Below, in pieces: positions 31,738-57,931 of a stretch of 64,000 nucleotides of DNA. Location: NCBI GenBank assembly GCA_018830005.1, contig JAHJTE010000001.1, positions 577,332-641,331 on the forward strand, given 5' to 3'. A model generated the notes under the pieces. The model did no database searches, was not told the DNA's origin, and was given only the letters and a program-made list of their open reading frames with translations. The position numbers and the translations under genes are program-made. Source of the DNA: Candidatus Omnitrophota bacterium. Its GTDB lineage: Bacteria; Omnitrophota; Gorgyraeia; JAHJTE01. Within the stretch, counting starts at the first letter, position 1; the number at the start of each line of letters is the position of its first letter.

Positions 31738-31750
31738 GGAAGGGGATACT

Positions 31751-32176: not shown

Positions 32177-32284
32177 CGGTATAGTTCCCGCTAAAATCTC
32201 TGTTCTACAAAACCGAACACTTGTTCTATATCATAGAACACCCTGTCGCAAAACTTGCATACTTTTTGCGACAACACACTACCG

Positions 32285-32333
32285 TCATCCCCGCCCCCGC
32301 TTTCGCGGGGATAAACTCCAGCGGGGACCCATT
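32285..32333. repeat. intergenic structured repeat, copy 2
   Basis: GTCATCCCCGCCCCC-GCTTTC-GCGGGG-ATAAACTCCAGCGGGGACCCA. Same family as 15375-15447. Confidence 0.5.
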
Positions 32334-32471
32334 TGTCACAAATAATATGCACTTTTTGTGACAAAGTAACTCCTCATGCACTCGTACAAATTATCTATAT
32401 TTATCTATAACTAGTGATATTTTGTACAATTTCTGCAAAAAAGCCTTTCCAACCCACACCAAAGAAAACCC

Positions 32472-32519
32472 TTGACATTAATGTTCAGTTAGCGTATATT
32501 GTTCAGTAGTTACTGAACA
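32472..32519 (+). promoter_or_regulatory. sigma70-like promoter with a palindromic operator
   Basis: TTGACA 32472-32477, 17-nt spacer, TATATT 32495-32500. TGTTCAGT-agtt-ACTGAACA palindrome at 32500-32519, with an extra TGTTCAGT at 32482. Confidence 0.6.
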
Positions 32520-32538
32520 ATAAAAAGGAGTGAACATT

Positions 32539-33225
32539 ATGAATAACCATACAAATGGAACAAATATTTTTGCCGATAAGGCGACCATTATCTTAAGAAA
32601 AATGCTGTCTGATCCTGAAAAGAAATGGGTTACGCGCGACTTTACAGGTGATGACGGGGTAAGCCTTGGAATGGCGCAAGGAGCGCTTGAAGCCATGGAG
32701 AAGAAGGGTTATATTGAGCGGGTCAAACGCGGCCCCGATAGCCACGCACTTCTTACGAACAAAGATAAGCTTATCAGCGATTGGGTCGCAGAGTACCAAT
32801 TTGAATTAAACAAAGTCGATACCTATTATTCTCCGGACAAAAATATCTTATCAAAGCTTAAGGATTATCTACAAGATAAGTCATACGCGCTTACGCTTCA
32901 TTCCGGAGCCAATCTGATGACTTCCTTTGTAGCCACAGATCAGGTCTATCTGTATTTTTATCCTGAAGACTGGAATAAGGATATTCTCGAGTTGCGCCAA
33001 CAGCTTGATTTAAAGGAACTCGTAAGGGGCGGTAATGTTCATATTATCCGTCCGTATTACAAAATAAGCGCATTTTATGGCGCCCAGACAATAAAAGGAT
33101 ATAAGGTTGTTTCTAATTTGCAGCTTTATCTGGACCTCTACAACTTTAAACCTCGCGGCCGTGAGCATGCACAACACCTTAAAGAATATCTGCAAGAGAA
33201 GGGAAAGAATTTGTATGAATCTTGA
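32539..33225 (+). CDS. winged-HTH protein, AbiEi-like putative antitoxin/regulator
   Basis: ATG at 32539 eight nt after AAGGAG. N-terminal wHTH (KWVTRDF...LGMAQGALEAMEKKGYIERVKRG). Overlaps the next gene. Confidence 0.45.
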   Translation: MNNHTNGTNIFADKATIILRKMLSDPEKKWVTRDFTGDDGVSLGMAQGALEAMEKKGYIERVKRGPDSHALLTNKDKLISDWVAEYQFELNKVDTYYSPDKNILSKLKDYLQDKSYALTLHSGANLMTSFVATDQVYLYFYPEDWNKDILELRQQLDLKELVRGGNVHIIRPYYKISAFYGAQTIKGYKVVSNLQLYLDLYNFKPRGREHAQHLKEYLQEKGKNLYES

Positions 33226-34012
33226 GAAAATCGAAGCCGTATTTTTCAATGTGCTTGAAGATATAAGCGATTATCTTCCGGATCTCACCCTTGTTGGAGG
33301 GTGGATGCCGTATGTTTACTCAAATTATCTTTGGAAGAAATCAGTTCGCAATCCGGTAGTTACGGTTGACATAGATTTTGGCGTGGATGAATCTGTTAGC
33401 GGAAAATATCCAAAGACAATTTTTGAAACACTCTCTTCATTAGATTACAAAGAACGTCATCCGAAGATGGACAGGCTATTTCCTGTTGTGCTGTATAAAG
33501 AGAAAATCCCGGTAGAATTTATTACATATCCTGCCGTTGATATTAAGGCAATCGAGAAGATGGTCGGCCAGCAAATTCAGATAAACAAGATAGAAAAATT
33601 TGATTTTCTCTTAAAGCACAGGATTCCGGTAAGCATTCAAACTAAAAAAAAGAGCAAAACCTATACTTTGAATTGCCCGAGACCATCAGCTTTTTTATAT
33701 CACAAGGGCGCAACTTTTATTGATAGAGAGAACCAAGAGAAACAGGCCAAAGATTTATATTATATGTATTTCATTTTGCGCTATGCGCCTGATATTGATG
33801 TGATTTTGCAGGAAGTATCCCAGTATAAACAAAAGGGATATTTAGTAAATACCGCGGATAACATAAATAAATTTTTCGAAAGGGTCTCAAGCCAGGGCTG
33901 TCTTCTAATAGAGCAGGAAAACGGCCCCGACGAATTCATTCACGACGTGCGGCAGGATATTTTTGATAGATTTAAACGCCTAAGAGATGTATTGCAAGGG
34001 ACTATCAAGTGA
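33215..34012 (+). CDS. AbiEii/DUF1814-like nucleotidyltransferase (putative toxin)
   Basis: LVGGWMPYVY...VTVDIDFGV motif. Paralog of the 5010-5720 protein. ATG overlaps the upstream stop. Confidence 0.5.
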   Translation: MNLEKIEAVFFNVLEDISDYLPDLTLVGGWMPYVYSNYLWKKSVRNPVVTVDIDFGVDESVSGKYPKTIFETLSSLDYKERHPKMDRLFPVVLYKEKIPVEFITYPAVDIKAIEKMVGQQIQINKIEKFDFLLKHRIPVSIQTKKKSKTYTLNCPRPSAFLYHKGATFIDRENQEKQAKDLYYMYFILRYAPDIDVILQEVSQYKQKGYLVNTADNINKFFERVSSQGCLLIEQENGPDEFIHDVRQDIFDRFKRLRDVLQGTIK

Positions 34013-34698
34013 AAGTCTACGCCGTCGGAGATATTCACGGCGCTTACAAGGCGCTCATACAGTGTTTTAAGCGCTCAGAATTCGACTATAAGAAAGACCG
34101 CTTGATAGTGATGGGGGATGTTTGCGATGGGTATCCGGACGTTAAACAGTGCATCGATGAACTTTTGAAGATTAAACACTGCGATCTGGTCATTGGCAAT
34201 CATGATATGTGGGCGCTGGATTGGGCGCTTAAAGGTGATAAGCCGGAGATATGGACAAGCCAGGGCGGTGACCGGACTATGGCCTCTTATAACGGCGGTC
34301 CTATGCCGCAGGCGCATATTGATTTCTTGAAGAATGGCCAGCTTTGGATCGAACGCGATGAACAAATCTTTGTGCATGGAGGATTCAATACGGATCTATT
34401 ACTTAAAAGCCATAGCGTGGATGCTTTGGTCTGGGATAGAACCCTTCTTGATATGGCTTGGAAGATGGAAATAGCTAGCCGTAAACGTCAGTTAGGTAAG
34501 TATAAGGATATATTTGTCGGCCATACGACAACAGAGCTTTACAATACACTACAGCCGATTCATGTATGTAATGTCTGGAATATTGATACCGGCGCAGGCT
34601 GGTCAGGAAAACTTACGATTATGGATGTTGATACAAAGAAATACTGGCAGTCGGACTTATCACCGGATTTATATGGTGGGACGCCGGATAATTTGTAA
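34009..34698 (+). CDS. calcineurin-like metallophosphoesterase (PrpE/ApaH/lambda-PPase-like)
   Basis: VYAVGDIHG, GDVCDG and GNHD motifs. Confidence 0.7.
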   Translation: MKVYAVGDIHGAYKALIQCFKRSEFDYKKDRLIVMGDVCDGYPDVKQCIDELLKIKHCDLVIGNHDMWALDWALKGDKPEIWTSQGGDRTMASYNGGPMPQAHIDFLKNGQLWIERDEQIFVHGGFNTDLLLKSHSVDALVWDRTLLDMAWKMEIASRKRQLGKYKDIFVGHTTTELYNTLQPIHVCNVWNIDTGAGWSGKLTIMDVDTKKYWQSDLSPDLYGGTPDNL

Positions 34699-34799
34699 AT
34701 TTTATTCCGGACATTATTTCGGACATTTATCGGCCATTTCGGACAATTGAAAGATGAGCCTAAGGGGACATAAAAGGGACAAATAAGCAGGATCTTATT

Positions 34800-35360
34800 A
34801 TGAACTACTGGTGGACAGCAGATTATCACTTTTCGCATTTCAATATCATTCGCTATTGCGAGCGGCCTTTTAAAACGGCTGAAGAAATGAATAGGGTGAT
34901 TATCCGCAAACATAACGAGAGGGTGAAACCCGAAGATACGGTATTCTTTCTGGGTGATTTTATCTTTAAGGGCGGGAAAGAAGGCGGAGAAGAGAGGTAT
35001 CGTGAGTTTGAGAAGAAACTAAACGGGAAGTTTATTTTCATCAAGGGTAATCACGACCGTAACAACAGCCTTAAGACGATCATTACAAAGATGTATATTC
35101 ACTACGGCTCAAAGGATATCTGCATGACGCACCGTCCGGAGAATGCTGACCCGGACGTGCCGCTTAATTTCTGCGGCCATGTTCATCAGCATTACAAGAT
35201 AAAACGCCTGAATGACAAGTCCTTAATCGTGAACCTTTCGGTTGAGGTTTGGAATTATTATCCGGTCTCATTTAATGAGATAAGCTCCGCTGTTTCAGCG
35301 TTTAAGAGGGAAGAAAGAAAAGCTGAGGTGGTTGAGGCTAATACAGGACATAAAGAATGA
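34800..35360 (+). CDS. calcineurin-like metallophosphoesterase, small
   Basis: WWTADYHFSH, FLGDFIFKGG, GNHDRN and GHVHQ motifs. Confidence 0.65.
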   Translation: MNYWWTADYHFSHFNIIRYCERPFKTAEEMNRVIIRKHNERVKPEDTVFFLGDFIFKGGKEGGEERYREFEKKLNGKFIFIKGNHDRNNSLKTIITKMYIHYGSKDICMTHRPENADPDVPLNFCGHVHQHYKIKRLNDKSLIVNLSVEVWNYYPVSFNEISSAVSAFKREERKAEVVEANTGHKE

Positions 35361-35824
35361 CGAAAAAAACTTTTAGACATTCAGCAGGGTTTGGGAAAAG
35401 GATTGAATATTGGGTTATCGGCCTGATGCTTAAAGAAGGGATTGATGTTTATGTGCCTTTAGTCGATGATGATGCGATCGACGCGGTTATAAAGAAACCT
35501 GATGGAACGTTTATTGAAGTTCAAATAAAGGCAAGGTCTAAAACCGTTAAAATGGGAGATGGAGCTCTATTTGCGGCCATTACACATGAGGCGCGTAAAG
35601 ATTATTACTTTGTGTTTTATTCTGAACGCTTGGATACTTTTTGGATAATGTCATCAGAGGAATTCATTAAGGAATCTGTTCAAAATAAATCAGGCAAAAA
35701 TGCCGGATTAAGATCGATCTGGTTTAATGGTAAACGCAAAAATAAAGAAACAGGCGAGTACAAAGAACATATTCATGAACGTTTCAAAAAATATGTAGTA
35801 AAAGATTTCTCAAGATTTAAATAA
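35357..35824 (+). CDS. PD-(D/E)xK nuclease-fold protein, Hjc/Holliday-junction-resolvase-like
   Basis: GKRIEYWVIGLMLKEGIDVYVPLVDDDAIDAV...FIEVQIKARS follows the E..D-x-D..E-x-K arrangement of Hjc/Mrr-type nucleases. Confidence 0.4.
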   Translation: MTKKTFRHSAGFGKRIEYWVIGLMLKEGIDVYVPLVDDDAIDAVIKKPDGTFIEVQIKARSKTVKMGDGALFAAITHEARKDYYFVFYSERLDTFWIMSSEEFIKESVQNKSGKNAGLRSIWFNGKRKNKETGEYKEHIHERFKKYVVKDFSRFK

Positions 35825-35850: not shown

Positions 35851-37857
35851 ATGACCATAAATTTTAAAGAAAGAGCAAATTTTATCTGGAGTATTGCTGA
35901 TCTTCTGCGAGGTGATTATAAGCAGTCGGAATACGGTCGGGTGATTTTGCCGCTCACGGTCCTGCGTCGCTTGGATTGCGTACTTGAACCAACAAAAGAG
36001 AAGGTTTTGTCGTATCTTCCACAGGTTAAAAGCTTATCCCCGGGAGCTGCTGAAACCGTTCTAAAGAAAAAGGCGAAGTTGTCTTTCTACAATAAGAGCA
36101 AGTTTGATTTTCGAAAGCTAATCGCTGACCCGAATGATATCGCCGCTAATCTCAGAAATTACATCAATGGGTTTTCCAAAAATGCCCGCAGTATCCTAGA
36201 ACACTTCAATTTTGATGACCATATTGAGCGGCTCGATAAATCTAACCTATTGTATATGGTTGTTAAGCGCTTTGCCGATGTGGATTTGCATCCCGAAGCA
36301 GTTGCTAATATTGAAATGGGTTATATTTTTGAGGAGCTTATCCGGAAATTCGCCGATCTTTCCAATGAGACAGCGGGGGAACATTTCACGCCTCGAGAGG
36401 TTATCAGGCTTATGGTTAATATCCTTTTTTTAAATGACAAAGAGATTCTTACAAAGAAAGGTATTGTTAAGACGCTCTTTGATCCTGCCTGCGGAACTGG
36501 CGGCATGCTTTCCGTGGCAGAAGAGTATCTGCGCGAGCTCAATCCAGATGCGGATCTGCGAGTGTTCGGGCAAGAGCTCAATCCTGAATCGTACGCCATT
36601 TGCAACTCTGACATGCTCATCAAGGGACAGAATACGGAGCATATCAAGTTTGGCAATTCCTTCACCCAAGATGGGCTTAAAGACGAAAAATTTGATTATA
36701 TGTTGAGCAATCCTCCTTTTGGCGTGGAGTGGAAGAAAATTAAAGACGAGATCACCAAAGAATATGAACAATTGGGTTTTTCCGGGCGTTTCGGTGCAGG
36801 GCTCCCGCGTATCAGCGACGGTTCATTTCTCTTTCTTCAGCACATGATTTCTAAGATGCGTCCGGAAGATGGCGGCGCACGGCTCGGGATTGTTTTTAAC
36901 GGATCTCCCTTGTTTTCAGGTGGGGCCGGAAGCGGTGAAAGCGAAATCCGCAAATGGATTATCGAGCATGATATGCTTGAGGCAATTATTGCCTTGCCAG
37001 ATCAGCTTTTTTATAACACAGGCATATCGACTTACATATGGATAGTTACCAATCGCAAAGAGAAAGAACGCAAAGGCAAAATTCAGCTTATCAATGCGGT
37101 TGAGTTTTTTGTCAAAATGGCCCGCAGCCTCGGGAATAAACGCAATGAAATTAGCGATGAGCATATCGCTAAAATTACTAAGATTTACGGAGAGTTTAAG
37201 CAGGGAGAATACTGTAAAATATTTCCCAATAAATATTTTGGCTATACGCGCGTAACAGTTGAGAGGCCTTTACGTCTTAATTTCCAGATATCCAAGGAGC
37301 GGATGGATAGGCTTAGCGAGCAGAGTGTTTTTATTAATCTCGCTAAGTCTAAGAAGAAAGGCAAAGCTGGTTTGAAGGAAGCTGAAGAAGGCGAAAAACT
37401 GCAAAAAGAGATTAAAACTATGCTTTCGCAGATGGACGCATCCAAGGTTTACAAGAACAGACAGCAATTTATAGAGGCTATTGAAGAAGCAATTAACAAA
37501 AGGGAACTTAAGGTCAAAGCGCCGGTTATGAAAGCCATCATGGACGCTCTTTGTGAGCGTGATGAAACTGCTGACGTTTGTTTAGATAAAGATGGAAAGC
37601 CAGAGTCTGATACAGAATTGCGCGATTGTGAAAATGTTCCCTTGCTTGAGGATATCGATGCCTATTTCAAGCGTGAAGTCCTACCTCATGTGCCGGATGC
37701 ATGGATGGACAGGAGCAAAGACAAGGTTGGCTATGAGATTAATCTTACCAAAGAGTTTTATAAATACAAACCGTTAAGGTCGCTTGAAGATATTCGCAAA
37801 GATATCCTGGCTTTGGAGAAAGAGACCGAAGGACTGATGGATCAGGTGTTGGAATAA
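35851..37857 (+). CDS. hsdM: type I restriction-modification system, DNA methyltransferase subunit
   Basis: N6-adenine MTase motifs FDPACGTGGML (motif I) and LSNPPFG (motif IV). 668 aa. Confidence 0.9.
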   Translation: MTINFKERANFIWSIADLLRGDYKQSEYGRVILPLTVLRRLDCVLEPTKEKVLSYLPQVKSLSPGAAETVLKKKAKLSFYNKSKFDFRKLIADPNDIAANLRNYINGFSKNARSILEHFNFDDHIERLDKSNLLYMVVKRFADVDLHPEAVANIEMGYIFEELIRKFADLSNETAGEHFTPREVIRLMVNILFLNDKEILTKKGIVKTLFDPACGTGGMLSVAEEYLRELNPDADLRVFGQELNPESYAICNSDMLIKGQNTEHIKFGNSFTQDGLKDEKFDYMLSNPPFGVEWKKIKDEITKEYEQLGFSGRFGAGLPRISDGSFLFLQHMISKMRPEDGGARLGIVFNGSPLFSGGAGSGESEIRKWIIEHDMLEAIIALPDQLFYNTGISTYIWIVTNRKEKERKGKIQLINAVEFFVKMARSLGNKRNEISDEHIAKITKIYGEFKQGEYCKIFPNKYFGYTRVTVERPLRLNFQISKERMDRLSEQSVFINLAKSKKKGKAGLKEAEEGEKLQKEIKTMLSQMDASKVYKNRQQFIEAIEEAINKRELKVKAPVMKAIMDALCERDETADVCLDKDGKPESDTELRDCENVPLLEDIDAYFKREVLPHVPDAWMDRSKDKVGYEINLTKEFYKYKPLRSLEDIRKDILALEKETEGLMDQVLE

Positions 37858-38576
37858 TGTTTATCAGGAGATTTATAAAAAGTACGCCTAGTTTTTATAT
37901 TATGGTGATGATACTCCTTGGCGTTATTTGCTTTATTGTGGCCAAATATGTTCACGGAGATCTTAAGTCAAACTTGATAGCTGAGGTCATAGGAGCAGCT
38001 ATCACGGTTATTATTATCGGTGGCTTATTAAGGATTTGGTATCCCCCACCCACCAAAACGATGTCTAAGTTTTTAATTCCTATGTTGCAGTATTACCTTT
38101 TTGGCTATGTGCGTAGTTTAGGATTTTTATTGCAATATCGCTTTGATAATACAGGGTTCAAAGGCATGAGTCCTATTGATCTTAGCACCTATGGTGTTTT
38201 CTTGGAGAGAAATCTGAACGGATTAAAACAGCATCTCGAACAGAGAAATAATACGAACTATACGCGAGCTGAATTACAACAGATGAAAAGAATGTTTCAG
38301 GCCTTTCATAATGCTATAAACGAATTTGTTATTCGTTACGGGAACCATTTGGACGACGATCTTCTCAATTTGCTCTACCAAATACGGCATATATGCGAGT
38401 ATCAGGTTTTCTATACAGGTGCCTTCTCATTAGAAAATGAATCGCCTGATGAAGTAGTTTGCATGGGGCAAGATATATCGAATGAGCCTATGAAGAATGT
38501 TTTAATATTGATTGAAAAGATAATGACTAAGATTAAAGACGGTACTGTACTCAAAACTGAACCGCTACCCATTTAG
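37857..38576 (+). CDS. hypothetical membrane-anchored protein embedded between hsdM and hsdS
   Basis: ATG overlaps the hsdM stop (TAATG). Two N-terminal TM helices then a 170 aa soluble domain. Stop lies 4 nt before the hsdS start. Confidence 0.5.
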   Translation: MFIRRFIKSTPSFYIMVMILLGVICFIVAKYVHGDLKSNLIAEVIGAAITVIIIGGLLRIWYPPPTKTMSKFLIPMLQYYLFGYVRSLGFLLQYRFDNTGFKGMSPIDLSTYGVFLERNLNGLKQHLEQRNNTNYTRAELQQMKRMFQAFHNAINEFVIRYGNHLDDDLLNLLYQIRHICEYQVFYTGAFSLENESPDEVVCMGQDISNEPMKNVLILIEKIMTKIKDGTVLKTEPLPI

Positions 38577-38580
38577 TGAA

Positions 38581-47547: not shown

Positions 47548-47602
47548 ATGATTTTCATAGGTAAAATTGTAGAAAAAAATAAAATTTTTCGAATGTCTTC
47601 TG

Positions 47603-48163: not shown

Positions 48164-48166
48164 TCT

Positions 48167-49888: not shown

Positions 49889-49894
49889 GAATAA

Positions 49895-51109: not shown

Positions 51110-51162
51110 ACTCTCGCGCTTATTCTCGCATATGCGTGTAAATTTATTATAGTTTACGACAT
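51101..51162. repeat. 14-bp inverted repeat (AATATGTCGTAAACT / AGTTTACGACATAT) with a 38-nt spacer
   Basis: Perfect 12-bp arms at 51101-51112 and 51151-51162, overlapping the stop codon of the upstream gene. Possible element boundary or recombination site. Confidence 0.4.
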
Positions 51163-51190
51163 ATCCAGAGAAGCTTTTTTAGGGTATAGT

Positions 51191-51228
51191 CCCTGTAGGA
51201 ATAAAAACCTGCAGGGATTTTTTATTTT
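51191..51228 (+). terminator. rho-independent terminator
   Basis: CCCTGTAGG-aataaaaa-CCTGCAGGG hairpin followed by ATTTTTTATTTT. Confidence 0.6.
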
Positions 51229-51255
51229 ATGGCAACGACAAAAGGCGAGATAAAA

Positions 51256-51573
51256 ATGAGAAGAGTAAAAGTTGATGAAGTGGTTTTCTACCCCATACGT
51301 CCTACCGAAAAAGGTTTAATCGGTTTTGCCTCCTGCTTATTCGATAGACGCCTTTCCTTGAGCAGTATTGCCATATATACACGGCCTGACGGAAAAGATT
51401 ACAGGCTTCTTTTTCCCTCAAAGCGGCTCCCGAACAATAAGGAAATAAATATATTTTATCCCGTGAATAGCGAGACTTACGAGCTGATAAAAGACGCGAT
51501 CGTGAAAAAAATAGAAGAATTAACCGAAAAGGTGAAAGAAAGAGGTGGATATGAAGAATATGGAAAATTATGA
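51256..51573 (+). CDS. SpoVG-family nucleic-acid-binding protein homolog
   Basis: MRRVKVDEVVFYPI..GLIGFASCLFD..LLFPSKRLPNNKEINIFYPVNSETYELIKDAI aligns with the SpoVG fold. Alternative start at 51229. Confidence 0.5.
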   Translation: MRRVKVDEVVFYPIRPTEKGLIGFASCLFDRRLSLSSIAIYTRPDGKDYRLLFPSKRLPNNKEINIFYPVNSETYELIKDAIVKKIEELTEKVKERGGYEEYGKL

Positions 51574-54157
51574 TTTCAGGGACATTATCGAAAACGTAAG
51601 GGAAAGGTATGACATTGGCGAAGTAGTAAGCCGACATGTAAGGCTTACTCATAGCAAGAAAGGCATTTGCCCTTTTCATGAGGAAAAGACGCCGAGTTTC
51701 TCGGTAAATACGAAAGGGCAGTATTTTTATTGCTTTGGCTGCGGTAAGGGCGGAGATGTTTTTAAATTTCTTGAGCTTTATGAGAGGAAGTCCTTTGCCG
51801 AGGTTTTAAGAGAGCTTGCGGATAGGGCCGGTATTAAGGTTCCAGACTTAGGTCCTAATTCGCACAAGCATATTGATGAAGAAAGGACGACTCGAGATAT
51901 CCTTAGCGTCGCAGCGGAATATTATCACGAGCGCATTACGCAAGAAGCAAACGATTATTTGACAAAGAAAAGAGGCATTAAGGATGAGATAATCTCCAGA
52001 TTCAAAATTGGTTATACAAACGGGAATTTAAACGAATACCTGATTAAAGAGTGCTGTTTCCCGCTCGATATTTGTCTTAAGGCCGGAGTCCTTAAGAAAA
52101 GAGAAGATGGTACCATCAAAGACTACTTCTGCAATAGGATTATTTTTCCTAATTTCAGGCGCGGCCAGGTGGTTCACATGTCCGCAAGAGGATTGGGTGA
52201 TAATGAGCCGAAATACCTGCATCTTCCGGGAGAGATAAAATACCCATATAATGAAGACTCGCTTTATGAAAAGGAAGTCTATGTTGTTGAGGGAATACTT
52301 GACTGCCTATCTCTTATCCAGTGTAGTTATCCTGCCGTTGCCGTTTTAGGCGCATCCAATTTTAAGTCCGAATACTTACAAAAGTTTTCCCGCTGCGAAA
52401 AGGTCTACATTTGCCTTGATGGCGATGAGGCGGGCATAAAAGGTTCGCTTAAGATCGGCAACATGATAGGAGATAAAGCAAGAATCGCTTCCTTGCCGGA
52501 AGGTATGGATATCAACGATTACCTTAATAGTTACACAAAAGATGATTTTGATAAGTTAATCGCCTGCTCCAAAGATCCTATTAAATATGAGCTTAGCTTT
52601 ATCTCGCCGGATACGGATAAAACCGAGCTTCCCCAAAAGCTTGAACCTATCTTGAAAAAATTAAGCTCTATGGAAAAAGCCCGGATAGAGGCGTATCTCA
52701 GCTATGAGATTAAGGCGCGTTTCAAGCTTAAAAAAGAGGATGTAGACGGCTATAGAGATATGATTATGAAGAGCCGCAAGGCGGATATGCAGGAAAGTAA
52801 GAGCCGGGCGGAGGAAGAAGAAGCTAAGCCAGTATATACCGCTTTATTTGAGGGCTTGATTGACGTAGTAGAAAAAGAAGGCAAACCCGCTTTTTTGATA
52901 AAGGAAGGTGATGATCTTTTAATCGTGAACAGCCTAAAGAAGGACGGCTTGCTTTATCTCCCGCCGCCTAAAGAGCAGATTCCATGGCTTATGCCGCGGG
53001 GAGAGGAGATATTGAAATTATATGAGACCCAATCAGAAAAATCCGCTGAGGAATGTGATAGAGAGCTTTATGACGAGCTGTTAGCTTACCATAAGTCAAT
53101 TTCGGAATTGCCGGAGGATAGCTATTACGACCTAATAACGGCCTGGGACCTACACACCTATCTTTTGGAAACAATAGAATATACGCCGATTATATGCCTG
53201 TTTGCCGTTCCTGAGCGCGGCAAAAGCCGCACCGGCAAGGGCATGATTTACATTGCCTTTCGCGGGATACATGTCGAGTCTTTAAGGGATGCCTATCTTG
53301 TGAGGGTTGCGAATGATCTCATGGCCTCTTTGTTTCTTGACGTAAAGGAGATATGGAAAAAGGCGGAGAAAAACGGGAGCGAAGACATACTATTACACCG
53401 TTTTGAGAAAGGGGCAAAAGTGCCGAGAGTCCTTTTTCCCGATAAGGGCGCGCACAGGGATATCGTGTATTATTCCATATTCGGCCCTACCATAATAAGC
53501 ACAAACGAGGGGATACACAGGATTCTTGAAACAAGGGCTATTCCTATTAACATGCCCGATACGACAAGACGTTTTGAAGATGATGTTACGCCTTTACGCG
53601 CCTTACCGCTCAAGGAAAAATTAATCACGTTCCGGGCAAGGCATTACGGGAAGGCGTTGCCATGTATGCCGAAACCGGCTTTAGGCAGGTTAGGGGATAT
53701 ACTTAAGCCTATCCAGCAGATTATACGCCTGGTCAGGCCGGAGCGAGAGGCTTATTTTCTAAAGCTTGTTAAGAGGTTAGAGTCGGAGAAATTGATTGAA
53801 AAAGCGGATACTATTGAGGCTCAGATCTTGGCTGTCTTGTCGAATCTCAGAAGCAATGTGGACAAGGGCATGCTTCCGGTTAAGGAGATTACGGATAGCT
53901 TTAACGAAGATAGGAGTGATAAATACAAGGTTACCTATCAGAGGATTGGCCGGAGGCTGTCGGCCATGGGGTTTAGTAAGGTAAGGACAAGTAACGGCGC
54001 TTCTGCCATAGTCTGGGATGAGGAGAAATTGGAGAGAATTAAGGACTCATACGGGTTGAGCAAAACGTCAGAAATACCAGATACGTCAGATACACCTAAA
54101 GACCCTTATGTTACTGACGTTTCTTGCGATACTGACGTTTCCCGGAGGCCATTTTGA
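51545..54157 (+). CDS. DNA primase (DnaG-like CHC2 zinc finger plus Toprim) with a large C-terminal domain
   Basis: CPFHEEKTPSFSVNTKGQYFYCFGCGKGGDVFKFL zinc-binding motif. Toprim-like VYVVEG...LDGDEAG. 870 aa. Confidence 0.75.
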   Translation: MDMKNMENYDFRDIIENVRERYDIGEVVSRHVRLTHSKKGICPFHEEKTPSFSVNTKGQYFYCFGCGKGGDVFKFLELYERKSFAEVLRELADRAGIKVPDLGPNSHKHIDEERTTRDILSVAAEYYHERITQEANDYLTKKRGIKDEIISRFKIGYTNGNLNEYLIKECCFPLDICLKAGVLKKREDGTIKDYFCNRIIFPNFRRGQVVHMSARGLGDNEPKYLHLPGEIKYPYNEDSLYEKEVYVVEGILDCLSLIQCSYPAVAVLGASNFKSEYLQKFSRCEKVYICLDGDEAGIKGSLKIGNMIGDKARIASLPEGMDINDYLNSYTKDDFDKLIACSKDPIKYELSFISPDTDKTELPQKLEPILKKLSSMEKARIEAYLSYEIKARFKLKKEDVDGYRDMIMKSRKADMQESKSRAEEEEAKPVYTALFEGLIDVVEKEGKPAFLIKEGDDLLIVNSLKKDGLLYLPPPKEQIPWLMPRGEEILKLYETQSEKSAEECDRELYDELLAYHKSISELPEDSYYDLITAWDLHTYLLETIEYTPIICLFAVPERGKSRTGKGMIYIAFRGIHVESLRDAYLVRVANDLMASLFLDVKEIWKKAEKNGSEDILLHRFEKGAKVPRVLFPDKGAHRDIVYYSIFGPTIISTNEGIHRILETRAIPINMPDTTRRFEDDVTPLRALPLKEKLITFRARHYGKALPCMPKPALGRLGDILKPIQQIIRLVRPEREAYFLKLVKRLESEKLIEKADTIEAQILAVLSNLRSNVDKGMLPVKEITDSFNEDRSDKYKVTYQRIGRRLSAMGFSKVRTSNGASAIVWDEEKLERIKDSYGLSKTSEIPDTSDTPKDPYVTDVSCDTDVSRRPF

Positions 54158-54224: not shown

Positions 54225-54374
54225 ATGAGCAAGAATCAATGGGATAAAGCGTTTGAAAGGATGCAGTCTGAAGCGGGGCAAGAGTCCAGAGAACATAAGC
54301 AGAGATGGGATAAGACGCTTGAGAGATTAGCTAATGAGTGGAATGAAACAGCAAGAGAAATCCAGCGTTGTTAA
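54225..54374 (+). CDS. small hypothetical protein
   Basis: 49 aa ORF after a strong RBS (AGGAGAGGAGG). Below the ORF-track cutoff. Confidence 0.3.
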   Translation: MSKNQWDKAFERMQSEAGQESREHKQRWDKTLERLANEWNETAREIQRC

Positions 54375-54534
54375 ATTCTGGTAGATGTTGTTAATGGTTG
54401 GTGCAGACTTTGGAGGGGGAATTCGTTGGACATGGAGGCAAGGTTAACGAATATAAAATGGGTCCTTCCGGAGGGGGCTTGGGCCGAGGGTCAGGCGAGG
54501 CGCAGTTTGTCAGTGATTTTAGGTTCATTTTTTT

Positions 54535-54653
54535 GCATGTCGGTGTCGGTATATCAAGGGAAAAAAATCATAATTTTAAGCACAAAACCGAAAAAATCAG
54601 GGGCAAGTAGACCGACATGAGCCTTTAGCAAATGTCGGATAGGATGCCGGATT
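54535..54653. repeat. iteron-like (C)ATGTCGG repeats, candidate replication origin
   Basis: GCATGTCGGTGTCGGT, ACCGACATG (inverted), ATGTCGGAT and ATGCCGGAT within 120 bp of an AT-rich non-coding stretch downstream of the primase. Confidence 0.35.
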
Positions 54654-54675
54654 TTTTCAGAAAGGACAAACCATC

Positions 54676-55314
54676 ATGACAGAAGAACAAAAAAGACAAA
54701 ACGAGGTGAATAAACAAAGCATTGCCGAGATAGCCAAGAAGAAAAGGCAGCTTTATCTTTATAACAAGATGCAGAGCGGAAAACCTCTCTCTGTTTCCGA
54801 GATAAAGGAAGTCGAGGCATTTGAGGCCTCAACTTTATCTCCGGGAGTCGTCAGGACTCAAGCAGAGGTAGCGCAGACCCTTGGCGTAACCAAAAGGACT
54901 GTTGAGCGATGGGCTAGTCAGGGAATGCCGATAACTCGTGAAGGCAATTATGATCTTCTGGATATCAAGGCCTGGAAGGTCACGAGAAAGAGATTCAAGT
55001 ATTTAAAAGACAATGAAAAAGAAAAATGGGACATAGAGTATCGAAAAAACAAAGCGCTTATAATCAAGATCGAATACGAAAAGACTTTAGGCCAGCTTAT
55101 ATCAAGAGAGGAAGTTGAAAAAGGAAGGATCGCCAGAATCATTGCCGTTAAAAATGCTTTTCTTGTTCTGCCTACGAGACTTGCGCCTTTACTTGCGATG
55201 AAGGAGCCAAGAGAAATCGAATCCATCATGCATGAGAACATTGCTGAAATATTAGATGATTTTGCAGGCGTGAGAAAAGGAATAAATGGAGAAGATGTGC
55301 AAGAGGAATGGTGA
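54676..55314 (+). CDS. HTH DNA-binding protein (terminase-small-subunit or replication-regulator-like)
   Basis: AEVAQTLGVTKRTVERWASQGMPI helix-turn-helix. 212 aa. Confidence 0.4.
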   Translation: MTEEQKRQNEVNKQSIAEIAKKKRQLYLYNKMQSGKPLSVSEIKEVEAFEASTLSPGVVRTQAEVAQTLGVTKRTVERWASQGMPITREGNYDLLDIKAWKVTRKRFKYLKDNEKEKWDIEYRKNKALIIKIEYEKTLGQLISREEVEKGRIARIIAVKNAFLVLPTRLAPLLAMKEPREIESIMHENIAEILDDFAGVRKGINGEDVQEEW

Positions 55315-55555
55315 AGATAAAAGTATTAGGCCTCGAGGGTGGGAAGCTTTAGAAATGAAGCTTAAAGGTAGGGGTCTGTCCATAGCGGAGGTTCAAGAGG
55401 CTCGCAAGTCGTTTTATGAGGGGATAGAGCTTTTGTCTAAGATGTTTTTGGTGTGCTATGAAGCGGAGAAGCAAGAAAAATGATGATAAGAAATACCTTG
55501 TATAAGGTTGTTTAATACGGTACAATACGAATGCTTATTAAAAGGGTCATTTATT

Positions 55556-55732
55556 ATGAAGACTTATACAATGACAGAGACGGCTAAAATGCTGGGAGTT
55601 CATCGCCAGACTATGATTAACTGGATTCGTAGGGGTTGGGTTAAGCCCAAAAGGGATTATAAGGACTGGCCGGTGTTTACGGATGAGTGTATCAAGAAGA
55701 TCAAGGATTGGCGGGAGAAGTTAAAGGATTAA
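55556..55732 (+). CDS. excisionase/MerR-like HTH protein
   Basis: MTETAKMLGVHRQTMINWIRRGWVKP is typical of the Xis/AlpA/MerR HTH_17 family. 58 aa. Confidence 0.5.
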   Translation: MKTYTMTETAKMLGVHRQTMINWIRRGWVKPKRDYKDWPVFTDECIKKIKDWREKLKD

Positions 55733-55736
55733 AAGT

Positions 55737-56252
55737 ATGTTCAAAAAATTATGGGACAGTATAAAATATAAAAAAATTTTGAGTGAAGTTGGAGATGGCC
55801 GATACCAAATATTTTCTCCAGAAGATCCATTTATTTCATCTTATTTATCTCCGGGATTAGCTAAGAAGCATGAAGATAAATTTACATGCGTATGTCTTGC
55901 TACTTGTGCTACTATTGTGACTTCAACAATTGATTATGCTTGTGAAGGAGTAATTATTCCTAAATGTTCACCGGTAGTTTTGTGGAGAACTTTTCGATAT
56001 TGCGAACACGATGGTGTCCCGCATCTTAACGCAGATGATAACATTATCTTTCCAGATCAAAAGGGCAGTATTTGGAAAGTATCAAAGACAGATTCCGAAG
56101 ACCACTATATTTCTATTGCTACATGGGCAGGACTCAACGTTATAGCATCTGCTTACCATTTACCACAGGTTCCGAGCGGAGCTTATTCGGATTATGTAGA
56201 AAATGGAGCTTCTGTGCCAATTACATTTGTGCCGGTGGGGAACAATAAGTAA
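55737..56252 (+). CDS. hypothetical protein
   Basis: 171 aa, Cys-containing, no recognisable motif. Confidence 0.4.
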   Translation: MFKKLWDSIKYKKILSEVGDGRYQIFSPEDPFISSYLSPGLAKKHEDKFTCVCLATCATIVTSTIDYACEGVIIPKCSPVVLWRTFRYCEHDGVPHLNADDNIIFPDQKGSIWKVSKTDSEDHYISIATWAGLNVIASAYHLPQVPSGAYSDYVENGASVPITFVPVGNNK

Positions 56253-57931
56253 TGAAAGTAGCATTATACACAAGAGTCAGTACTGAGGATCAGGCGCGTG
56301 AGGGGTTCTCGCTTGAGGTTCAGCGGGATTACCTTTTGCAGTATGCCAAGAATTTCGGCTGGGATGTGTTTTGCAGTATGTCCGGCCGGGATATTTATAT
56401 GGATGACGGGTATTCAGGTGGAAACATGGACAGGCCTGCTTTGCAGAGGCTTCTCTTCGACGCTAAGAATAAACAGTTTGATTTAGTGATGGTCTATAAG
56501 CAGGACAGGCTCAGCAGAAAATTAAAGGATCTTTTAGCTTTATTAGAAGAGTTTGAGTCGCTTGGTATTGGCTATAAATCTGCAACCGAGCCTTTTGACA
56601 CTACATCAAGTGCCGGTAAAATGGCAATCCAAATGCTTGGTAGTTGCGCCGAATTTGAAAGGAACCGGCTTGTTGAAAGGGTATTTCCCGGAATGATCGT
56701 AGGCGTAAAGAAAGGCCACTGGCAAGGCGCCAGATATGCCCCATACGGATATAGATACAATAAAGAAATTAAGAAGTTTGAAGTCCATCCAGAAGAAGCA
56801 AAAATAGTTAAAGAGATTTTCTCTATGTATTTAGGCGGCAAAAGTACTTCTCAGATAGCAGGCCATTACTATAATCTGGGCATTGCTTCACGCCAGGGAG
56901 GTAAATTTTACACTAAATTTATCTCATCCATCCTGAAAAGCAAAGCTTATCTAGGCACCCTTGTGTGGAATAAGCGGCGTTATGATAAGAAAGAAAAAAC
57001 AAAAAACGGCGAGGGCAAGGGCTACAAATACGTCAACAATGACCCGTCAAAAATAATTGAAGTCCCGAATTGCCACGAGCCGATTATCTCCCAGGAAGAA
57101 TTTGACCGGGCTCAAAAACTGCTCAAAAGAAACCGCACTAATACCGTAGTCAGGTTCAGAAATAATGTTTATCATTTATCAGGGATATTGAAATGCAACG
57201 AGTGCGGGATGAATTATCGCGGGCTCACATTAACGGTTAATCACCACACAAAAATGAGGCGGCCGTGGTATTGCTGTTCGTCTGTTGGCGTGTCATATAT
57301 CAAATGTAAGAATAAATCCGTTACGGCTGACGCAATCAATAAGCAGGTCTGGGATATCATCGATACTATAAGCAAGAACCTTCATGTAATCGAAGAGCTT
57401 AGCGATATTATCAAGTTAAGCGCTACTGAGCCGGAGCAACATTATATTGAAGAGTTGGAGACAAAAGAAAAGGGCATTAGCAAGAACCTTGAGAAACAAA
57501 AGGCCCTCTATGAGGTATTTTCAGAGGATAAGATTAACATCGATATCTATAAAGACCGGGCCGAGCTGTTAAGGAATGAGGAGAAGAAACTTAGGCAAGA
57601 TGTTAAGGCGATCCAGTTAAGGATCCTTGAGAAGAGGAATGCGGTCAATCTGGTAAAAGCCACGCAGGATTTTCTTTTAAGGTTGAGGAGCAATCCTAAG
57701 GGCGAGCAGATGGATTACCTCATCAAAACGTTTATGAGGATAATATTCAGGGCTATCTATATCCAGAACCAGGAGATTGTCAGGCACGACCTGAATGAGC
57801 CCTGGAAGAGTTGTTATGAAGAGGGGATGAAATGGCTGAAAACGCAGGAAACAGCGCCAATAGAGGCGAAAAAGGCGGAAAAGGCAAGAAGAAGTTACGT
57901 ATACTTTTGCGTACCTTCGGATGTCAAATGA
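56252..57931 (+). CDS. large serine recombinase (integrase)
   Basis: N-terminal resolvase domain ALYTRVSTEDQ (Ser nucleophile) and DLVMVYKQDRLSR, a recombinase domain, a zinc ribbon (CNECG...CCSS) and a coiled coil. 559 aa. Confidence 0.85.
   Translation: MKVALYTRVSTEDQAREGFSLEVQRDYLLQYAKNFGWDVFCSMSGRDIYMDDGYSGGNMDRPALQRLLFDAKNKQFDLVMVYKQDRLSRKLKDLLALLEEFESLGIGYKSATEPFDTTSSAGKMAIQMLGSCAEFERNRLVERVFPGMIVGVKKGHWQGARYAPYGYRYNKEIKKFEVHPEEAKIVKEIFSMYLGGKSTSQIAGHYYNLGIASRQGGKFYTKFISSILKSKAYLGTLVWNKRRYDKKEKTKNGEGKGYKYVNNDPSKIIEVPNCHEPIISQEEFDRAQKLLKRNRTNTVVRFRNNVYHLSGILKCNECGMNYRGLTLTVNHHTKMRRPWYCCSSVGVSYIKCKNKSVTADAINKQVWDIIDTISKNLHVIEELSDIIKLSATEPEQHYIEELETKEKGISKNLEKQKALYEVFSEDKINIDIYKDRAELLRNEEKKLRQDVKAIQLRILEKRNAVNLVKATQDFLLRLRSNPKGEQMDYLIKTFMRIIFRAIYIQNQEIVRHDLNEPWKSCYEEGMKWLKTQETAPIEAKKAEKARRSYVYFCVPSDVK

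What the first reader, a model, noticed from the sequence alone, without database searches (positions are those of the whole stretch)
32177..57931. A roughly 26 kb accessory/defense island between the ars operon and miaB
Between arsC (ends 32176) and miaB lie 25 co-directional genes, almost all defense-related or mobile-element-related: an AbiE-like pair, phosphoesterases and nuclease, hsdM-X-hsdS-hsdR(S24), Sir2-HerA, five unknowns, primase, recombinase. The flanks are conserved housekeeping genes. The whole block may be a single integrative element carrying stacked defenses, with the serine recombinase at its right end.
Basis: inference. Interest (0 to 1): 0.55.

Follow-up and report, generated by a model that had tools for sequence, protein, structure and literature searches.

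The report
Recombinase-driven mobile island inserted in miaB
The stacked defence genes are real, but they are only the right-hand part of a roughly 51 kb composite mobile element that a large serine recombinase inserted into the first codons of the tRNA-modification gene miaB, with the element itself supplying a replacement start for that gene.

Summary
The gene content reported for 32177-57931 is confirmed: an AbiEi-like/nucleotidyltransferase pair, two phosphoesterases, a PD-(D/E)XK nuclease, type I R-M with an HsdR-S24 fusion, SIR2-HerA, unknowns, a primase and a large serine recombinase (LSR).

The proposed left border at arsC is wrong. The original miaB 5' end (MNNDMKVFIRAWG) lies at 7147-7187, joined to an element arm. 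The right junction is at 57919-57923, inside the last codons of the LSR gene, and both junctions share the core GGATG. Joining the two flanks restores an in-frame 368-aa MiaB.

The element therefore spans 7188-57918 (50.7 kb) and contains the ars, pst/pho and crcB genes. A second left-type junction at 15302 makes it composite, with an inner 42.6 kb unit. A related contig (L119) carries this inner unit's junction in the joined P|P' form expected of an excised circle.

The LSR belongs to a large family found almost entirely in Omnitrophota. Of the 120 best homologues, 100 end by reading into miaB's G-C-Q-M codons, and 8 of 34 metagenome loci show the excised (attP) form. All 39 copies examined carry, out of frame within the LSR 3' end, a conserved substitute miaB start. 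Close relatives hold Gabija, Pycsar or other defence systems at the same cargo position.

This is a new variant of a known kind.

The parts
7147..7187 (+). Displaced native 5' end of miaB (ATG..MNNDMKVFIRAWG). This is the host (B) arm of the outer left junction attL1, with core GGATG at 7183-7187.
   Evidence: It is 91.7% identical over 48 nt to the miaB start of the closest island-free relative, L086 (blastn E 1.5e-13). L086 homology resumes at window 57919. Joining 7147-7187 to 57924-58989 gives an in-frame 368-aa MiaB. The same junction is present in a second strain, L088.
7188..7230 (+). Element arm P'1 of attL1 (ACCGATGGTTGCACTATTACATGACGAT..).
   Evidence: Homologous to the sequence that directly follows the recombinase gene in attP-form relatives (L089, L093, L095, L104, L116).
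7188..15306 (+). Segment A, an accreted module or remnant: DnaJ-like, DUF5661, MFS, MscS, a 477-aa unknown and a sulfatase-like membrane protein.
   Evidence: Pfam annotation. It lies between two left-type junctions. In strain L088, identity falls from 99% to 87% after position 8194.
15271..15375 (+). Inner left junction attL2: a miaB-like 5' fragment (TTG..SHLKAYIKTFG), core GGATG at 15302-15306, then arm P'2 (GCCAATGGCCAGTTTATAGTAAG..).
   Evidence: Found by regex. P'2 aligns with the P' arms of L119, L109, L131 and L120. L119 joins the recombinase 3' end to P'2 plus the same methyltransferase gene: 1-1138 matches window 56792-57923 and 1220-2000 matches 15435-16215.
15455..32176 (+). Metabolic and resistance cargo: SAM methyltransferase, hemerythrin, cupin, DsrE, a TauE fragment, fluoride riboswitch plus CrcB, DUF190, TrmO, PhoB/PhoR-like pair, porin, PstSCAB-PhoU, and ArsR-ArsP-thioredoxin-like-DsbD-like-ACR3-ArsC.
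   Evidence: Pfam and Rfam fluoride riboswitch at 17803-17865. The block lies between attL2 and attR.
32177..32529 (+). It holds two inverted repeats (GTCGCAAAA-N10-TTTTGCGAC and TTGTCACAAA-N12-TTTGTGACAA), a copy of the GC-rich hairpin repeat (32284-32330), and a promoter-like site upstream of the AbiEi-like gene.
   Evidence: Read from the sequence. ACTTTTTGYGAC occurs only at 32261 and 32351. The hairpin repeat occurs only at 15376-15445 and 32284-32330. This may be a degenerate old junction, but that is not shown.
32530..35824 (+). AbiEi_2 / NTP_transf_8 pair, two metallophosphoesterases and a PD-(D/E)XK nuclease.
   Evidence: Pfam. No PADLOC AbiE hit.
35851..43340 (+). Type I restriction-modification system: HsdM, a 239-aa membrane-like unknown, HsdS, and HsdR fused to a C-terminal S24 (LexA-like) domain.
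   Evidence: Pfam and PADLOC. The S24 motifs GKSMEP and TIKRY are visible in the translation.
43451..46559 (+). SIR2-HerA defence pair. The two genes overlap by 8 nt.
   Evidence: PADLOC HerA E 9e-126 and SIR2 E 9e-29. Pfam SIR2_2 and DUF87.
46642..49006 (+). Three unannotated cargo genes (301 aa, 186 aa, and 279 aa with a SEC-C motif).
   Evidence: Only weak PADLOC candidate-family hits and no informative PHROG hit. Not shared with close relatives.
49148..54157 (+). Conserved backbone, replication module: SWIM protein, a 404-aa unknown, a SpoVG-like protein and an 870-aa DnaG-type primase.
   Evidence: 84-97% identical in L093, L094 and L112, with homology starting at about 49135. Pfam and PHROG primase hits.
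54460..54517 (+). Conserved 58-nt non-coding element (GGGTCCTT..GAGGGTCRGGCGAGGCGCAGTYTGTCAGTGAT).
   Evidence: 77-97% identical in at least 25 family loci, and present twice in L102 and L108. No covarying RNA structure was found. Function unknown.
54676..56252 (+). Backbone: small-terminase-like HTH protein (54676-55314), orf65 (55286-55483), a 58-aa HTH_17 excisionase-like protein (55556-55732) and a 171-aa unknown.
   Evidence: phrog_57 small terminase subunit, E 4e-22. The HTH_17 protein is about 91% identical in 26 loci and orf65 is found in 29 loci.
56252..57931 (+). Large serine recombinase (559 aa). Its last codons (..D V K stop) run into host miaB sequence.
   Evidence: Pfam Resolvase, Recombinase and Zn_ribbon_recom. 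Closest PDB matches are TP901-1 integrase and SPbeta SprA. 578 homologues at E<1e-40.
57832..57923 (+). Element-borne substitute miaB 5' end (MAENAGNSANRGEKGGKGKKKLRILLRTFG), encoded out of frame inside the recombinase 3' end. It overlaps the P arm of attR.
   Evidence: Open and ATG-initiated in all 39 family copies. In 27 of them it is fused in frame to diverse host MiaB proteins. MiaB homologues P0012 and P0014 carry the same extension.
57919..57960 (+). attR core GGATG (57919-57923) and host arm B' (TCAAATGAATGTTCGGG.., the miaB codons C-Q-M-N-V-R).
   Evidence: Alignment with empty sites in L084, L083 and L086 and with the occupied site in L085. 34 family junctions compared.
57832..58989 (+). 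Chimeric miaB (385 aa): element-derived N-terminus plus host-derived UPF0004 and radical SAM domains.
   Evidence: Pfam. The conserved core begins at residue 21-26 in all homologues.

Best explanation
The reported block is the right-hand 60% of a composite integrative element. A large serine recombinase inserted this element into codon 13-14 of the host gene miaB.

Junctions:
- attL1 at 7183-7187 joins the native miaB start to element arm P'1.
- attR at 57919-57923 joins element arm P to the rest of miaB.
- attR lies inside the 3' end of the recombinase gene.
- Both junctions share only a 5-bp core, GGATG, as expected for serine recombinases.

Size and structure:
- The outer element is 7188-57918 (50,731 bp).
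- A second left-type junction at 15302-15306 defines an inner unit, 15307-57918 (42,612 bp).
- The inner unit's P|P' joint, as expected of an excised circle, is seen in a relative.
- The 8 kb between the two left junctions is most likely the remnant of an earlier or accreted element.

Preserving miaB:
- Insertion would decapitate miaB.
- The element avoids this by carrying a conserved substitute start of about 30 codons.
- That start is embedded in the +2 frame of the recombinase 3' end and fuses in frame to the host's ..GCQMN.. codons.

Layout of the element:
- Conserved backbone at the right (about 49.1-57.9 kb): SWIM, a 404-aa protein, SpoVG-like protein, primase, small-terminase-like protein, orf65, an HTH_17 candidate excisionase and the recombinase.
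- Variable defence slot directly upstream of the backbone, here holding AbiEi-like/NTase, phosphoesterases, a nuclease, type I R-M, SIR2-HerA and unknowns.
- Stress and ion-resistance cargo further left (ars, pst/pho, crcB with its riboswitch).

Shown: the junctions, reconstruction of the intact target, family-wide miaB targeting, the existence of attP forms, the dual coding and the variable defence slot.

Inferred: that this copy can still excise, that the HTH_17 protein is the directionality factor, the order of accretion events, and the means of cell-to-cell transfer.
For: (1) L086, the closest island-free relative (MiaB 74% identical), matches window 7140-7187 at 91.7% and then window 57919-59653, with a 5-nt overlap.
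(2) Joining the two flanks restores an in-frame 368-aa MiaB beginning MNNDMKVFIRAWGCQMNVRDSE, compared with MNKDMKVFIRTWGCQMNVRDSE in L086.
(3) Empty sites without a recombinase exist in L084, L086, L003 and L004.
(4) L085, a different species (MiaB 66% identical), has a homologous recombinase C-terminus overlapping miaB in the same way.
(5) Of the 120 best recombinase homologues (43-94% identical), 100 end in [DAVG][VA][KR]-stop. This is the frame-shifted reading of miaB's G-C-Q-M codons. Another 11-12 read on into an 'xRW' tail like the predicted attP form of this element.
(6) Of 34 metagenome loci that contain the recombinase 3' end, 25 continue into diverse miaB genes and 8 continue into P' arms (attP form). 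The P arm GAAGAAGYTACGTRTRCTTTTGCGYACCTTCGGATG is nearly invariant. L089, L090 and L091 show the same attP joint in three separate assemblies.
(7) L119 joins the recombinase end directly to P'2 plus the methyltransferase found at window 15435-16215.
(8) L120 is an 11.3 kb family member with the same layout, a miaB 5' fragment joined to P' at one end and the recombinase at the other.
(9) The substitute miaB start is open in all 39 of 39 copies examined.
(10) The recombinase is up to 94% identical in other genomes, while the best foreign MiaB is 74% identical. This indicates horizontal spread.
(11) Close relatives carry Gabija (L094), Pycsar (L112), a NACHT-C-domain protein (L093), HsdR-S24 plus TPR-PIN (L113) or SIR2 (L089) immediately upstream of the same backbone.
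(12) Composition is mosaic. Primase, ars, R-M and the 15.4-19.2 kb stretch are atypical, with GC3 up to 0.50 against 0.26-0.40 in the host flanks.
Against: - No empty site or circular joint of this exact element was found. Every assembly of this species that was retrieved carries it, so current mobility is unproven.
- The closest island-free genome is only 74% identical in MiaB, and gene order upstream of miaB is not conserved among relatives. The left border therefore rests on a 41-nt gene fragment plus arm homology, not on flanking gene order.
- Parts of the interior (7.2-15.4 kb and 19.2-27.6 kb) look host-like in composition.
- The sequence left of attL2 is host-arm-like rather than a recombinase 3' end. 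Simple tandem integration does not predict this, so the accretion history is unresolved.
- L086 has the 19-mer of P'1 some 650 nt upstream of its own intact miaB. This is unexplained and hints at a more complicated history at this site.
- Gapless dyad symmetry around the core is only moderate, so the exact crossover dinucleotide is not fixed.
Confidence: 0.85

Rival explanations
1. One reading: a single 26 kb element bounded by arsC on the left and miaB on the right, with ars and miaB adjacent in the empty state.
For: - All recognisable defence and mobility genes lie in 32.2-57.9 kb.
- There is a 354-nt intergenic gap with unusual inverted repeats.
- The GC-rich hairpin repeat that sits just inside attL2 has its only other copy at 32284-32330. 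This border may therefore be a decayed junction of a once separate unit.
Against: - No miaB 5' fragment, core or P' arm lies at 32.2 kb.
- The native miaB start is at 7147-7187.
- No relative has ars upstream of miaB.
- L119 shows that the circular joint connects the recombinase end to 15.3 kb, not to 32.2 kb.
Confidence: 0.07
2. A fixed chromosomal defence hotspot assembled in place. On this view the recombinase is an unrelated invertase or a relic, and the miaB-like fragments are chance matches or local duplications.
For: - Every assembly of this species carries the block.
- Some interior stretches are host-like in composition.
Against: - The recombinase/miaB junction recurs in 100 of 120 homologues across many hosts.
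- attP-form contigs exist in several independent assemblies.
- Joining the flanks restores miaB exactly.
- Island-free relatives exist.
Confidence: 0.03
3. The element is a phage satellite or defective prophage that moves by hijacking a helper phage's capsids, using its small-terminase-like protein.
For: - 54676-55314 matches phrog_57, small terminase subunit, at E 4e-22 and is conserved in 11 family loci.
- The integrase, excisionase-like HTH protein and primase form a satellite-like backbone.
- One relative is listed in IMG/VR.
- Satellites are known carriers of defence systems (PMC9122126, abstract).
Against: - No capsid, portal, large terminase or tail genes appear in Pfam or PHROGs.
- At 42-51 kb it is far larger than known satellites.
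- Relative L116 is an attP-form copy on a 111.5 kb contig. It has a Walker-A coupling-protein-like gene and small membrane proteins that suggest conjugation. That reading comes from the translations only, without an HMM search.
Confidence: 0.15

Closest known systems
Integrative elements and prophages driven by large serine recombinases (TP901-1, A118, SPbeta SprA, SCCmec CcrAB)
   Same: - Three-domain recombinase (resolvase, recombinase and zinc-ribbon domains). The best PDB matches are TP901-1 integrase and SPbeta SprA.
- attL and attR share only a few bases.
- The recombinase gene sits at the element end next to attP.
- Insertion is within a protein-coding gene.
   Different: - Only about 30% identical to phage integrases.
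- The target is the 5' codons of miaB, not comK, spsM, sigK or rlmH.
- The crossover lies inside the recombinase reading frame, so the integrated and excised forms encode different C-termini (559 aa against a predicted 576 aa).
- The target gene is repaired by an out-of-frame substitute start encoded within the recombinase gene. By contrast (my recollection, not checked here), A118 and SPbeta disrupt their targets and SCCmec preserves a 3' end.
Myxophage Mx8 intP/attP arrangement and SSV-type integrases, where attP lies inside the integrase gene (from my own knowledge; not checked against a paper here)
   Same: Integration changes the 3' end, and therefore the C-terminus, of the integrase gene.
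   Different: - Those are tyrosine recombinases.
- They do not carry an overlapping replacement start for the target gene.
Tandem accretion of integrative elements (ICE/CIME-type composite islands, described for streptococcal elements; from my own knowledge)
   Same: Several att-type junctions in direct orientation inside one island, with a recombinase only at one end.
   Different: - Those cases involve tyrosine recombinases and repeated att cores.
- Here the internal junction is host-arm|P' for a serine recombinase. The standard attP x attB rule does not readily predict that arrangement.
Defence hotspots on mobile elements (P2/P4 hotspots, PICIs, pipolins)
   Same: A conserved backbone with a variable slot that holds different defence systems in close relatives: SIR2-HerA and type I R-M here, Gabija, Pycsar and others in relatives. 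The concept is as described in PMC9122126 and PMC11551731 (abstracts).
   Different: - A different backbone and a different host phylum (Omnitrophota).
- The element also carries about 25 kb of resistance and transport cargo.
Large integrative or circular elements of Omnitrophota described in bioRxiv 10.64898/2026.05.20.726742
   Same: The same phylum, and large elements with host-like cargo seen in both integrated and circular forms.
   Different: Those two elements use a Mu-class DDE transposase or a tyrosine integrase. The preprint reports no serine integrase Pfam hit on the first of those two elements, and the word miaB does not occur in its text.

Membership tests
Large serine recombinase (serine integrase) | N-terminal resolvase catalytic domain with the serine nucleophile | tested here: met
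   PF00239 E 6.8e-34 over residues 3-156. The motif YTRVSTEDQ has Ser10. TP901-1 integrase catalytic domain matches at E 7.7e-31.
Large serine recombinase (serine integrase) | C-terminal recombinase domain and zinc-ribbon domain | tested here: met
   PF07508 E 7e-24 and PF13408 E 3e-9.
Large serine recombinase (serine integrase) | attP x attB recombination with a very short shared core and no long flanking direct repeats | tested here: met
   attL1, attL2 and attR share only GGATG. Across the family the P arm and the B' or P' arms diverge immediately after GGNTG. The exact central dinucleotide is not determined.
Large serine recombinase (serine integrase) | Excision requires a separate directionality factor | not testable with these tools
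   The candidate is the 58-aa HTH_17 protein at 55556-55732, about 91% identical in 26 loci. This is inference only.
Site-specific integrative genomic island | Joining the flanks reconstitutes an intact target that exists unoccupied in relatives | tested here: met
   Empty sites are seen in L084, L086, L003 and L004.
Site-specific integrative genomic island | An excised (attP) form exists | tested here: inconclusive
   attP-form contigs were found for relatives (L089-L091, L093, L095, L104, L109, L116, L119, L131, L136). None was found for this exact copy, and contig circularity could not be checked.
Integrative conjugative element (ICE) | Relaxase, coupling protein and type IV secretion genes | tested here: not met
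   No such Pfam hits occur anywhere in 7188-57918. Relative L116 has coupling-protein-like and VirB-like genes, judged by eye only.
Phage satellite (PICI/P4-like) | Integrase, primase/replication and packaging-redirection genes in an element of about 10-20 kb, with helper dependence | tested here: inconclusive
   Integrase, primase and a small-terminase-like gene are present. The size of 42-51 kb does not fit. No capsid-remodelling genes were recognised. Helper dependence cannot be tested here.
Prophage | Capsid, portal, large terminase and tail genes | tested here: not met
   None were found in Pfam or PHROGs.
SIR2-HerA defence system | Adjacent SIR2-domain and HerA ATPase genes | tested here: met
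   PADLOC SIR2 E 9e-29 and HerA E 9e-126. The genes overlap by 8 nt. Activity was not tested.
Type I restriction-modification | HsdM, HsdS and HsdR together | tested here: met
   PADLOC MTase_I E 8e-297 and REase_I E 2e-37. Pfam Methylase_S hits two target-recognition domains. Unusual features are an extra 239-aa gene between hsdM and hsdS, and the S24 fusion on HsdR.
AbiE type IV toxin-antitoxin | AbiEi antitoxin paired with an AbiEii (DUF1814-type) nucleotidyltransferase toxin | tested here: not met
   AbiEi_2 matches at E 4e-12, but the partner is NTP_transf_8 (PF12281), not AbiEii. There are no PADLOC AbiE hits. It should be described as AbiE-like only.

The most novel reading that the evidence does not exclude
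This family of serine-recombinase elements has evolved a triple-use 3' end. The same roughly 90 nt serves three purposes:
- It is the recombinase's own binding arm (P).
- It encodes the recombinase C-terminus.
- In another frame, it encodes a ready-made replacement start for the target gene miaB.

Because the crossover lies inside the recombinase reading frame, the enzyme exists in two forms. The integrated form is short and ends ..PSDVK. The excised form is longer and carries a conserved tail of the pattern ..RWxxYxxx(L/M)xx(F/A)L. This switch could help set the direction of recombination or its expression.

The attB core sits on the codons for the near-universal T-F-G-C-Q-M-N iron-sulphur motif. 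In principle this gives the family a landing site in almost any bacterium.
Probability: 0.25. Interest if true: 0.7.

Novelty: new variant of a known kind. Interest (0 to 1): 0.55.

Why it matters
- The finding changes the map. The mobile unit is about twice the size proposed and also carries the arsenic, phosphate and fluoride genes. These should therefore not be read as core Omnitrophota metabolism.
- It defines, from sequence alone, a large natural set of matched attP/attB/attL/attR sites for one serine-integrase family, in a phylum with no genetic tools. The target is a highly conserved coding motif, which is of practical interest for integrase-based engineering.
- It gives a clear example of an element that neutralises the cost of inserting into an important gene by carrying an overlapping substitute start.
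- It shows a variable defence slot (SIR2-HerA, type I R-M, Gabija, Pycsar, NACHT-like) in a little-studied lineage.

Tried and rejected
- No tRNA gene is present as an integration target.
- An exact-repeat search between the right junction and the rest of the window gave only two colinear 11-mers at 21775 and 21806. None of 150 Markov shuffles reproduced such a pair, but local alignment was unremarkable. The match overlaps the start of a small membrane ORF. It is left unexplained and not used.
- The inverted repeats at 32250-32366 were first considered as attL. This was rejected once the true junctions were found.
- Gene order with the nearest GTDB genomes (MiaB no more than 53% identical) was uninformative upstream of miaB.
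- Look-ups of exact MiaB, MiaA and VIT1-like proteins found only the same population, with no empty site.
- The single IMG/VR hit, L092, shares only the recombinase.
- A gapless dyad-symmetry scan did not fix the crossover dinucleotide.
- RNAalifold on the conserved 58-nt element found no supported structure.
- Literature searches for Omnitrophota plus serine recombinase, and for miaB plus serine integrase plus attB, found nothing relevant.
- One Python run failed on memory and was repeated.
- Circularity of the attP-form contigs could not be checked, because only 10 kb on each side of each match was retrievable.

Full report
SOURCE AND OBSERVATION

The window is a stretch in which all genes lie on the + strand, with about 39% G+C. 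It comes from an Omnitrophota metagenome-assembled genome. It is 99.99-100% identical to parts of GCA_043815545.1 and of a Logan contig from SRR6514730. The nearest MiaB proteins are annotated Candidatus Omnitrophota.

- An AbiEi_2 protein with an NTP_transf_8 partner.
- Two calcineurin-like phosphoesterases and a PD-(D/E)XK nuclease.
- HsdM, a 239-aa unknown, HsdS, and an HsdR whose last 110 residues or so are a Peptidase_S24 domain.
- SIR2 and HerA.
- Several unannotated genes, a SpoVG-like protein, a DnaG-type primase and HTH proteins.
- A 559-aa large serine recombinase (resolvase, recombinase and zinc-ribbon domains).

The 'AbiE' label is only partly justified. The partner is not an AbiEii-type protein, and PADLOC does not call AbiE.

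THE RIGHT END

The recombinase gene stops at 57931, about 100 nt after the start of the longest miaB reading frame (57832). The part of MiaB conserved in all homologues begins only at ..KLRILLRTFGCQMN...

In L085, a different species with MiaB 66% identical, the contig begins with the C-terminus of a homologous recombinase. It overlaps miaB in exactly the same way.

Relatives without a recombinase (L084, L083, L086, L003, L004) have short native starts such as MKKSVFIRTFGCQMN.

THE LEFT END

blastn of L086, the closest island-free relative (MiaB 74% identical), against the window gave two matches:
- L086 664-711 matches window 7140-7187 at 91.7% identity (E 1.5e-13).
- L086 707-2429 matches window 57919-59653.

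The first match is the start codon and first 13 codons of miaB (MNNDMKVFIRAWG). It is stranded just after the VIT1-like gene and followed by unrelated sequence.

The two matches overlap by 5 nt, GGATG. Joining 7147-7187 to 57924 onward restores an in-frame 368-aa MiaB. This is the signature of a site-specific insertion. It places the outer left junction 25 kb to the left of arsC.

The same junction is present at 99% identity in a second strain, L088. That strain then diverges to 87% identity a little further in.

No relative has ars genes upstream of miaB.

FAMILY EVIDENCE

The recombinase has 578 homologues at E<1e-40, nearly all from Omnitrophota. Identity reaches 94%, although the best foreign MiaB is only 74% identical. 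The element has therefore spread horizontally.

C-termini of the 120 best homologues:
- 100 end in [DAVG][VA][KR]-stop. This is what results when the recombinase frame reads through miaB's G-C-Q-M codons.
- 11-12 are longer and continue with an 'xRW..' tail. This resembles the read-through predicted if this element's two ends were joined (..PSD-DRWLHYYMTIIKIFKQRQI, 576 aa).

At the DNA level, 34 metagenome loci contain the recombinase 3' end:
- All share a nearly invariant arm, GAAGAAGYTACGTRTRCTTTTGCGYACCTTCGGATG.
- 25 continue into miaB genes of clearly different hosts (GCQMN followed by V, I, T, F, L, E or D).
- 8 continue into P' arms homologous to window 7188 onward, which is the excised configuration.

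L089, L090 and L091 show one such joint in three independent assemblies.

In every one of 39 copies, the miaB frame upstream of the core is open for 27-40 codons and starts with ATG (M(A/V)EN...KKLR(I/V)LLRTFG). In 27 of them it is fused in frame to the host gene. The element thus carries a replacement start for the gene it interrupts, written out of frame inside its own recombinase gene.

COMPOSITE STRUCTURE

A pattern search for 'core plus P' arm' found a second left-type junction at 15302-15306. Its left side is a miaB-like fragment (..SHLKAYIKTFG). Its right side is a P' arm that aligns with those of L119, L109, L131 and L120.

L119 is decisive. Its first 1138 nt match window 56792-57923, the recombinase end up to the core. 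About 80 nt later it matches window 15435-16215, the methyltransferase just inside this junction. The unit 15307-57918 (42.6 kb) therefore corresponds to a circularisable element. The 8 kb between the two left junctions is an accreted or remnant module.

L120 shows the same layout in an 11.3 kb relative.

How the internal junction arose is unresolved, because its left side looks like a host arm rather than a recombinase end.

That border might be a decayed older junction, but no core or arm survives there.

BACKBONE, CARGO AND DEFENCE SLOT

tblastn of all window proteins against the family loci shows the following:
- The recombinase, a 58-aa HTH_17 protein (about 91% identical in 26 loci), orf65 and a small-terminase-like protein (phrog_57, E 4e-22) are widely conserved.
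- The SWIM protein, the 404-aa protein, the SpoVG-like protein and the primase are shared with the closest relatives (L093, L094, L112).
- Homology stops at about 49.1 kb.

Immediately upstream of that point, relatives carry other defence systems:
- Gabija in L094.
- Pycsar in L112.
- A NACHT-C-domain protein with an esterase in L093.
- HsdR-S24 and TPR-PIN in L113.
- SIR2 with a 1077-aa protein in L089.
- A Dcm-type R-M with Vsr in L116, judged from the translations only.

The idea of stacked, exchangeable defences on a mobile element is therefore well supported.

Further left the element carries resistance and transport cargo:
- The fluoride riboswitch with CrcB.
- PhoB/R, a porin and PstSCAB-PhoU.
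- The ars operon.

There are no conjugation genes and no phage structural genes in this copy. One relative, L116, sits on a 111.5 kb contig and appears to encode a coupling protein and small VirB-like proteins, judged by eye only.

Composition is mosaic. Host flanks have a tetranucleotide correlation of 0.95-0.97 with the host reference and GC3 of 0.26-0.40. The primase, R-M, ars and 15.4-19.2 kb stretches are atypical. The 7.2-15.4 kb and 19.2-27.6 kb stretches look host-like.

COMPARISON WITH WHAT IS KNOWN

The enzyme is a bona fide large serine recombinase. TP901-1 integrase and SPbeta SprA are the best PDB matches, and phage integrases are about 30% identical. Integrative islands with such enzymes, and defence hotspots on mobile elements, are well known.

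Three things appear not to have been described, within the limits of four literature searches:
- This miaB-targeting family in Omnitrophota.
- The placement of the crossover inside the recombinase reading frame.
- The overlapping substitute start for the target gene.

A 2026 preprint describes large integrative elements in this phylum, but they use a DDE transposase or a tyrosine integrase.

VERDICT

The borders and size are wrong, and the architecture is more interesting than proposed. It is a new variant of a known kind. Whether this copy is still mobile is unproven.

Noticed in passing
window 39825-43340 (S24 domain about 42990-43340): HsdR carries a C-terminal LexA-like S24 peptidase domain with the Ser and Lys motifs intact (GKSMEP, TIKRY).
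- Homologues of this domain are mostly stand-alone proteins of 100-300 aa.
- Others are fused to the type I HsdR C-terminal region (PF11867), to Mrr-type nucleases or to DUF2075 helicases, largely in Omnitrophota.
- Similar HsdR-S24 sequences occur in family loci L113 and L131.
   Followed up: partly
window 54460-54517: A 58-nt non-coding sequence between the primase and the small-terminase-like gene is 77-97% identical in at least 25 related elements, even where the flanking genes differ. It is present twice in L102 and L108. No covarying RNA fold was found. It could be an origin, a packaging or binding site, or a small RNA.
   Followed up: partly
window 17803-17865: A fluoride riboswitch (Rfam RF01734, 60 bits) lies directly upstream of crcB (17883-18272), inside the element's cargo.
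   Followed up: yes
window 4682-5720: A second pair, a 115-aa unknown plus a 236-aa NTP_transf_8 protein (E 2e-25), sits in the host flank outside the element. It resembles the AbiEi-like/NTase pair at 32530-34012.
   Followed up: no
L086 1-19 versus window 7198-7216: The contig of the closest island-free relative starts with TGCACTATTACATGACGAT. This is identical to the outer part of the window's P'1 arm, and it lies about 650 nt upstream of that relative's intact miaB. A remnant of an earlier element may sit there too.
   Followed up: partly
window 21775-21816: Two 11-mers (TATACTTTTGC and CAAATGAATGT) are colinear with the right junction at 57900 and 57925. None of 150 Markov shuffles gave such a pair. 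However, the match overlaps the start of a 45-aa membrane ORF between phoR and the porin gene. It is either a relic site or chance.
   Followed up: partly
window 32250-32366 and 15376-15445 / 32284-32330: Two related inverted repeats (GTCGCAAAA-N10-TTTTGCGAC and TTGTCACAAA-N12-TTTGTGACAA) flank a GC-rich hairpin repeat. The only other copy of that repeat lies just inside the 15.3 kb junction. These could be operator sites or a decayed junction.
   Followed up: partly
window 57832-58989 and homologues P0001-P0120: MiaB in this lineage is short (about 365-390 aa) and has only the UPF0004 and radical SAM domains. No TRAM domain was reported for the window protein or for any of the 120 listed homologues.
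   Followed up: no
L116 12012-17354: An attP-form family member on a 111.5 kb contig encodes a 459-aa multi-pass membrane protein, a 779-aa Walker-A protein resembling a coupling protein, and small VirB2/VirB3-like proteins just after the recombinase. Some family members may therefore be conjugative. This was read from the translations only.
   Followed up: no
L083, L085 and L087 contig ends; window 9700, 30843 and 52628: Several independent assemblies break exactly at the miaB 5' end or inside the element. This fits strain-level variation at this site and explains why such islands are fragmented in metagenome-assembled genomes.
   Followed up: partly
window 17445-17804: The TauE/SafE-like ORF matches only the C-terminal half of the Pfam model (positions 129-237 of 237). 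It may be a truncated gene.
   Followed up: no
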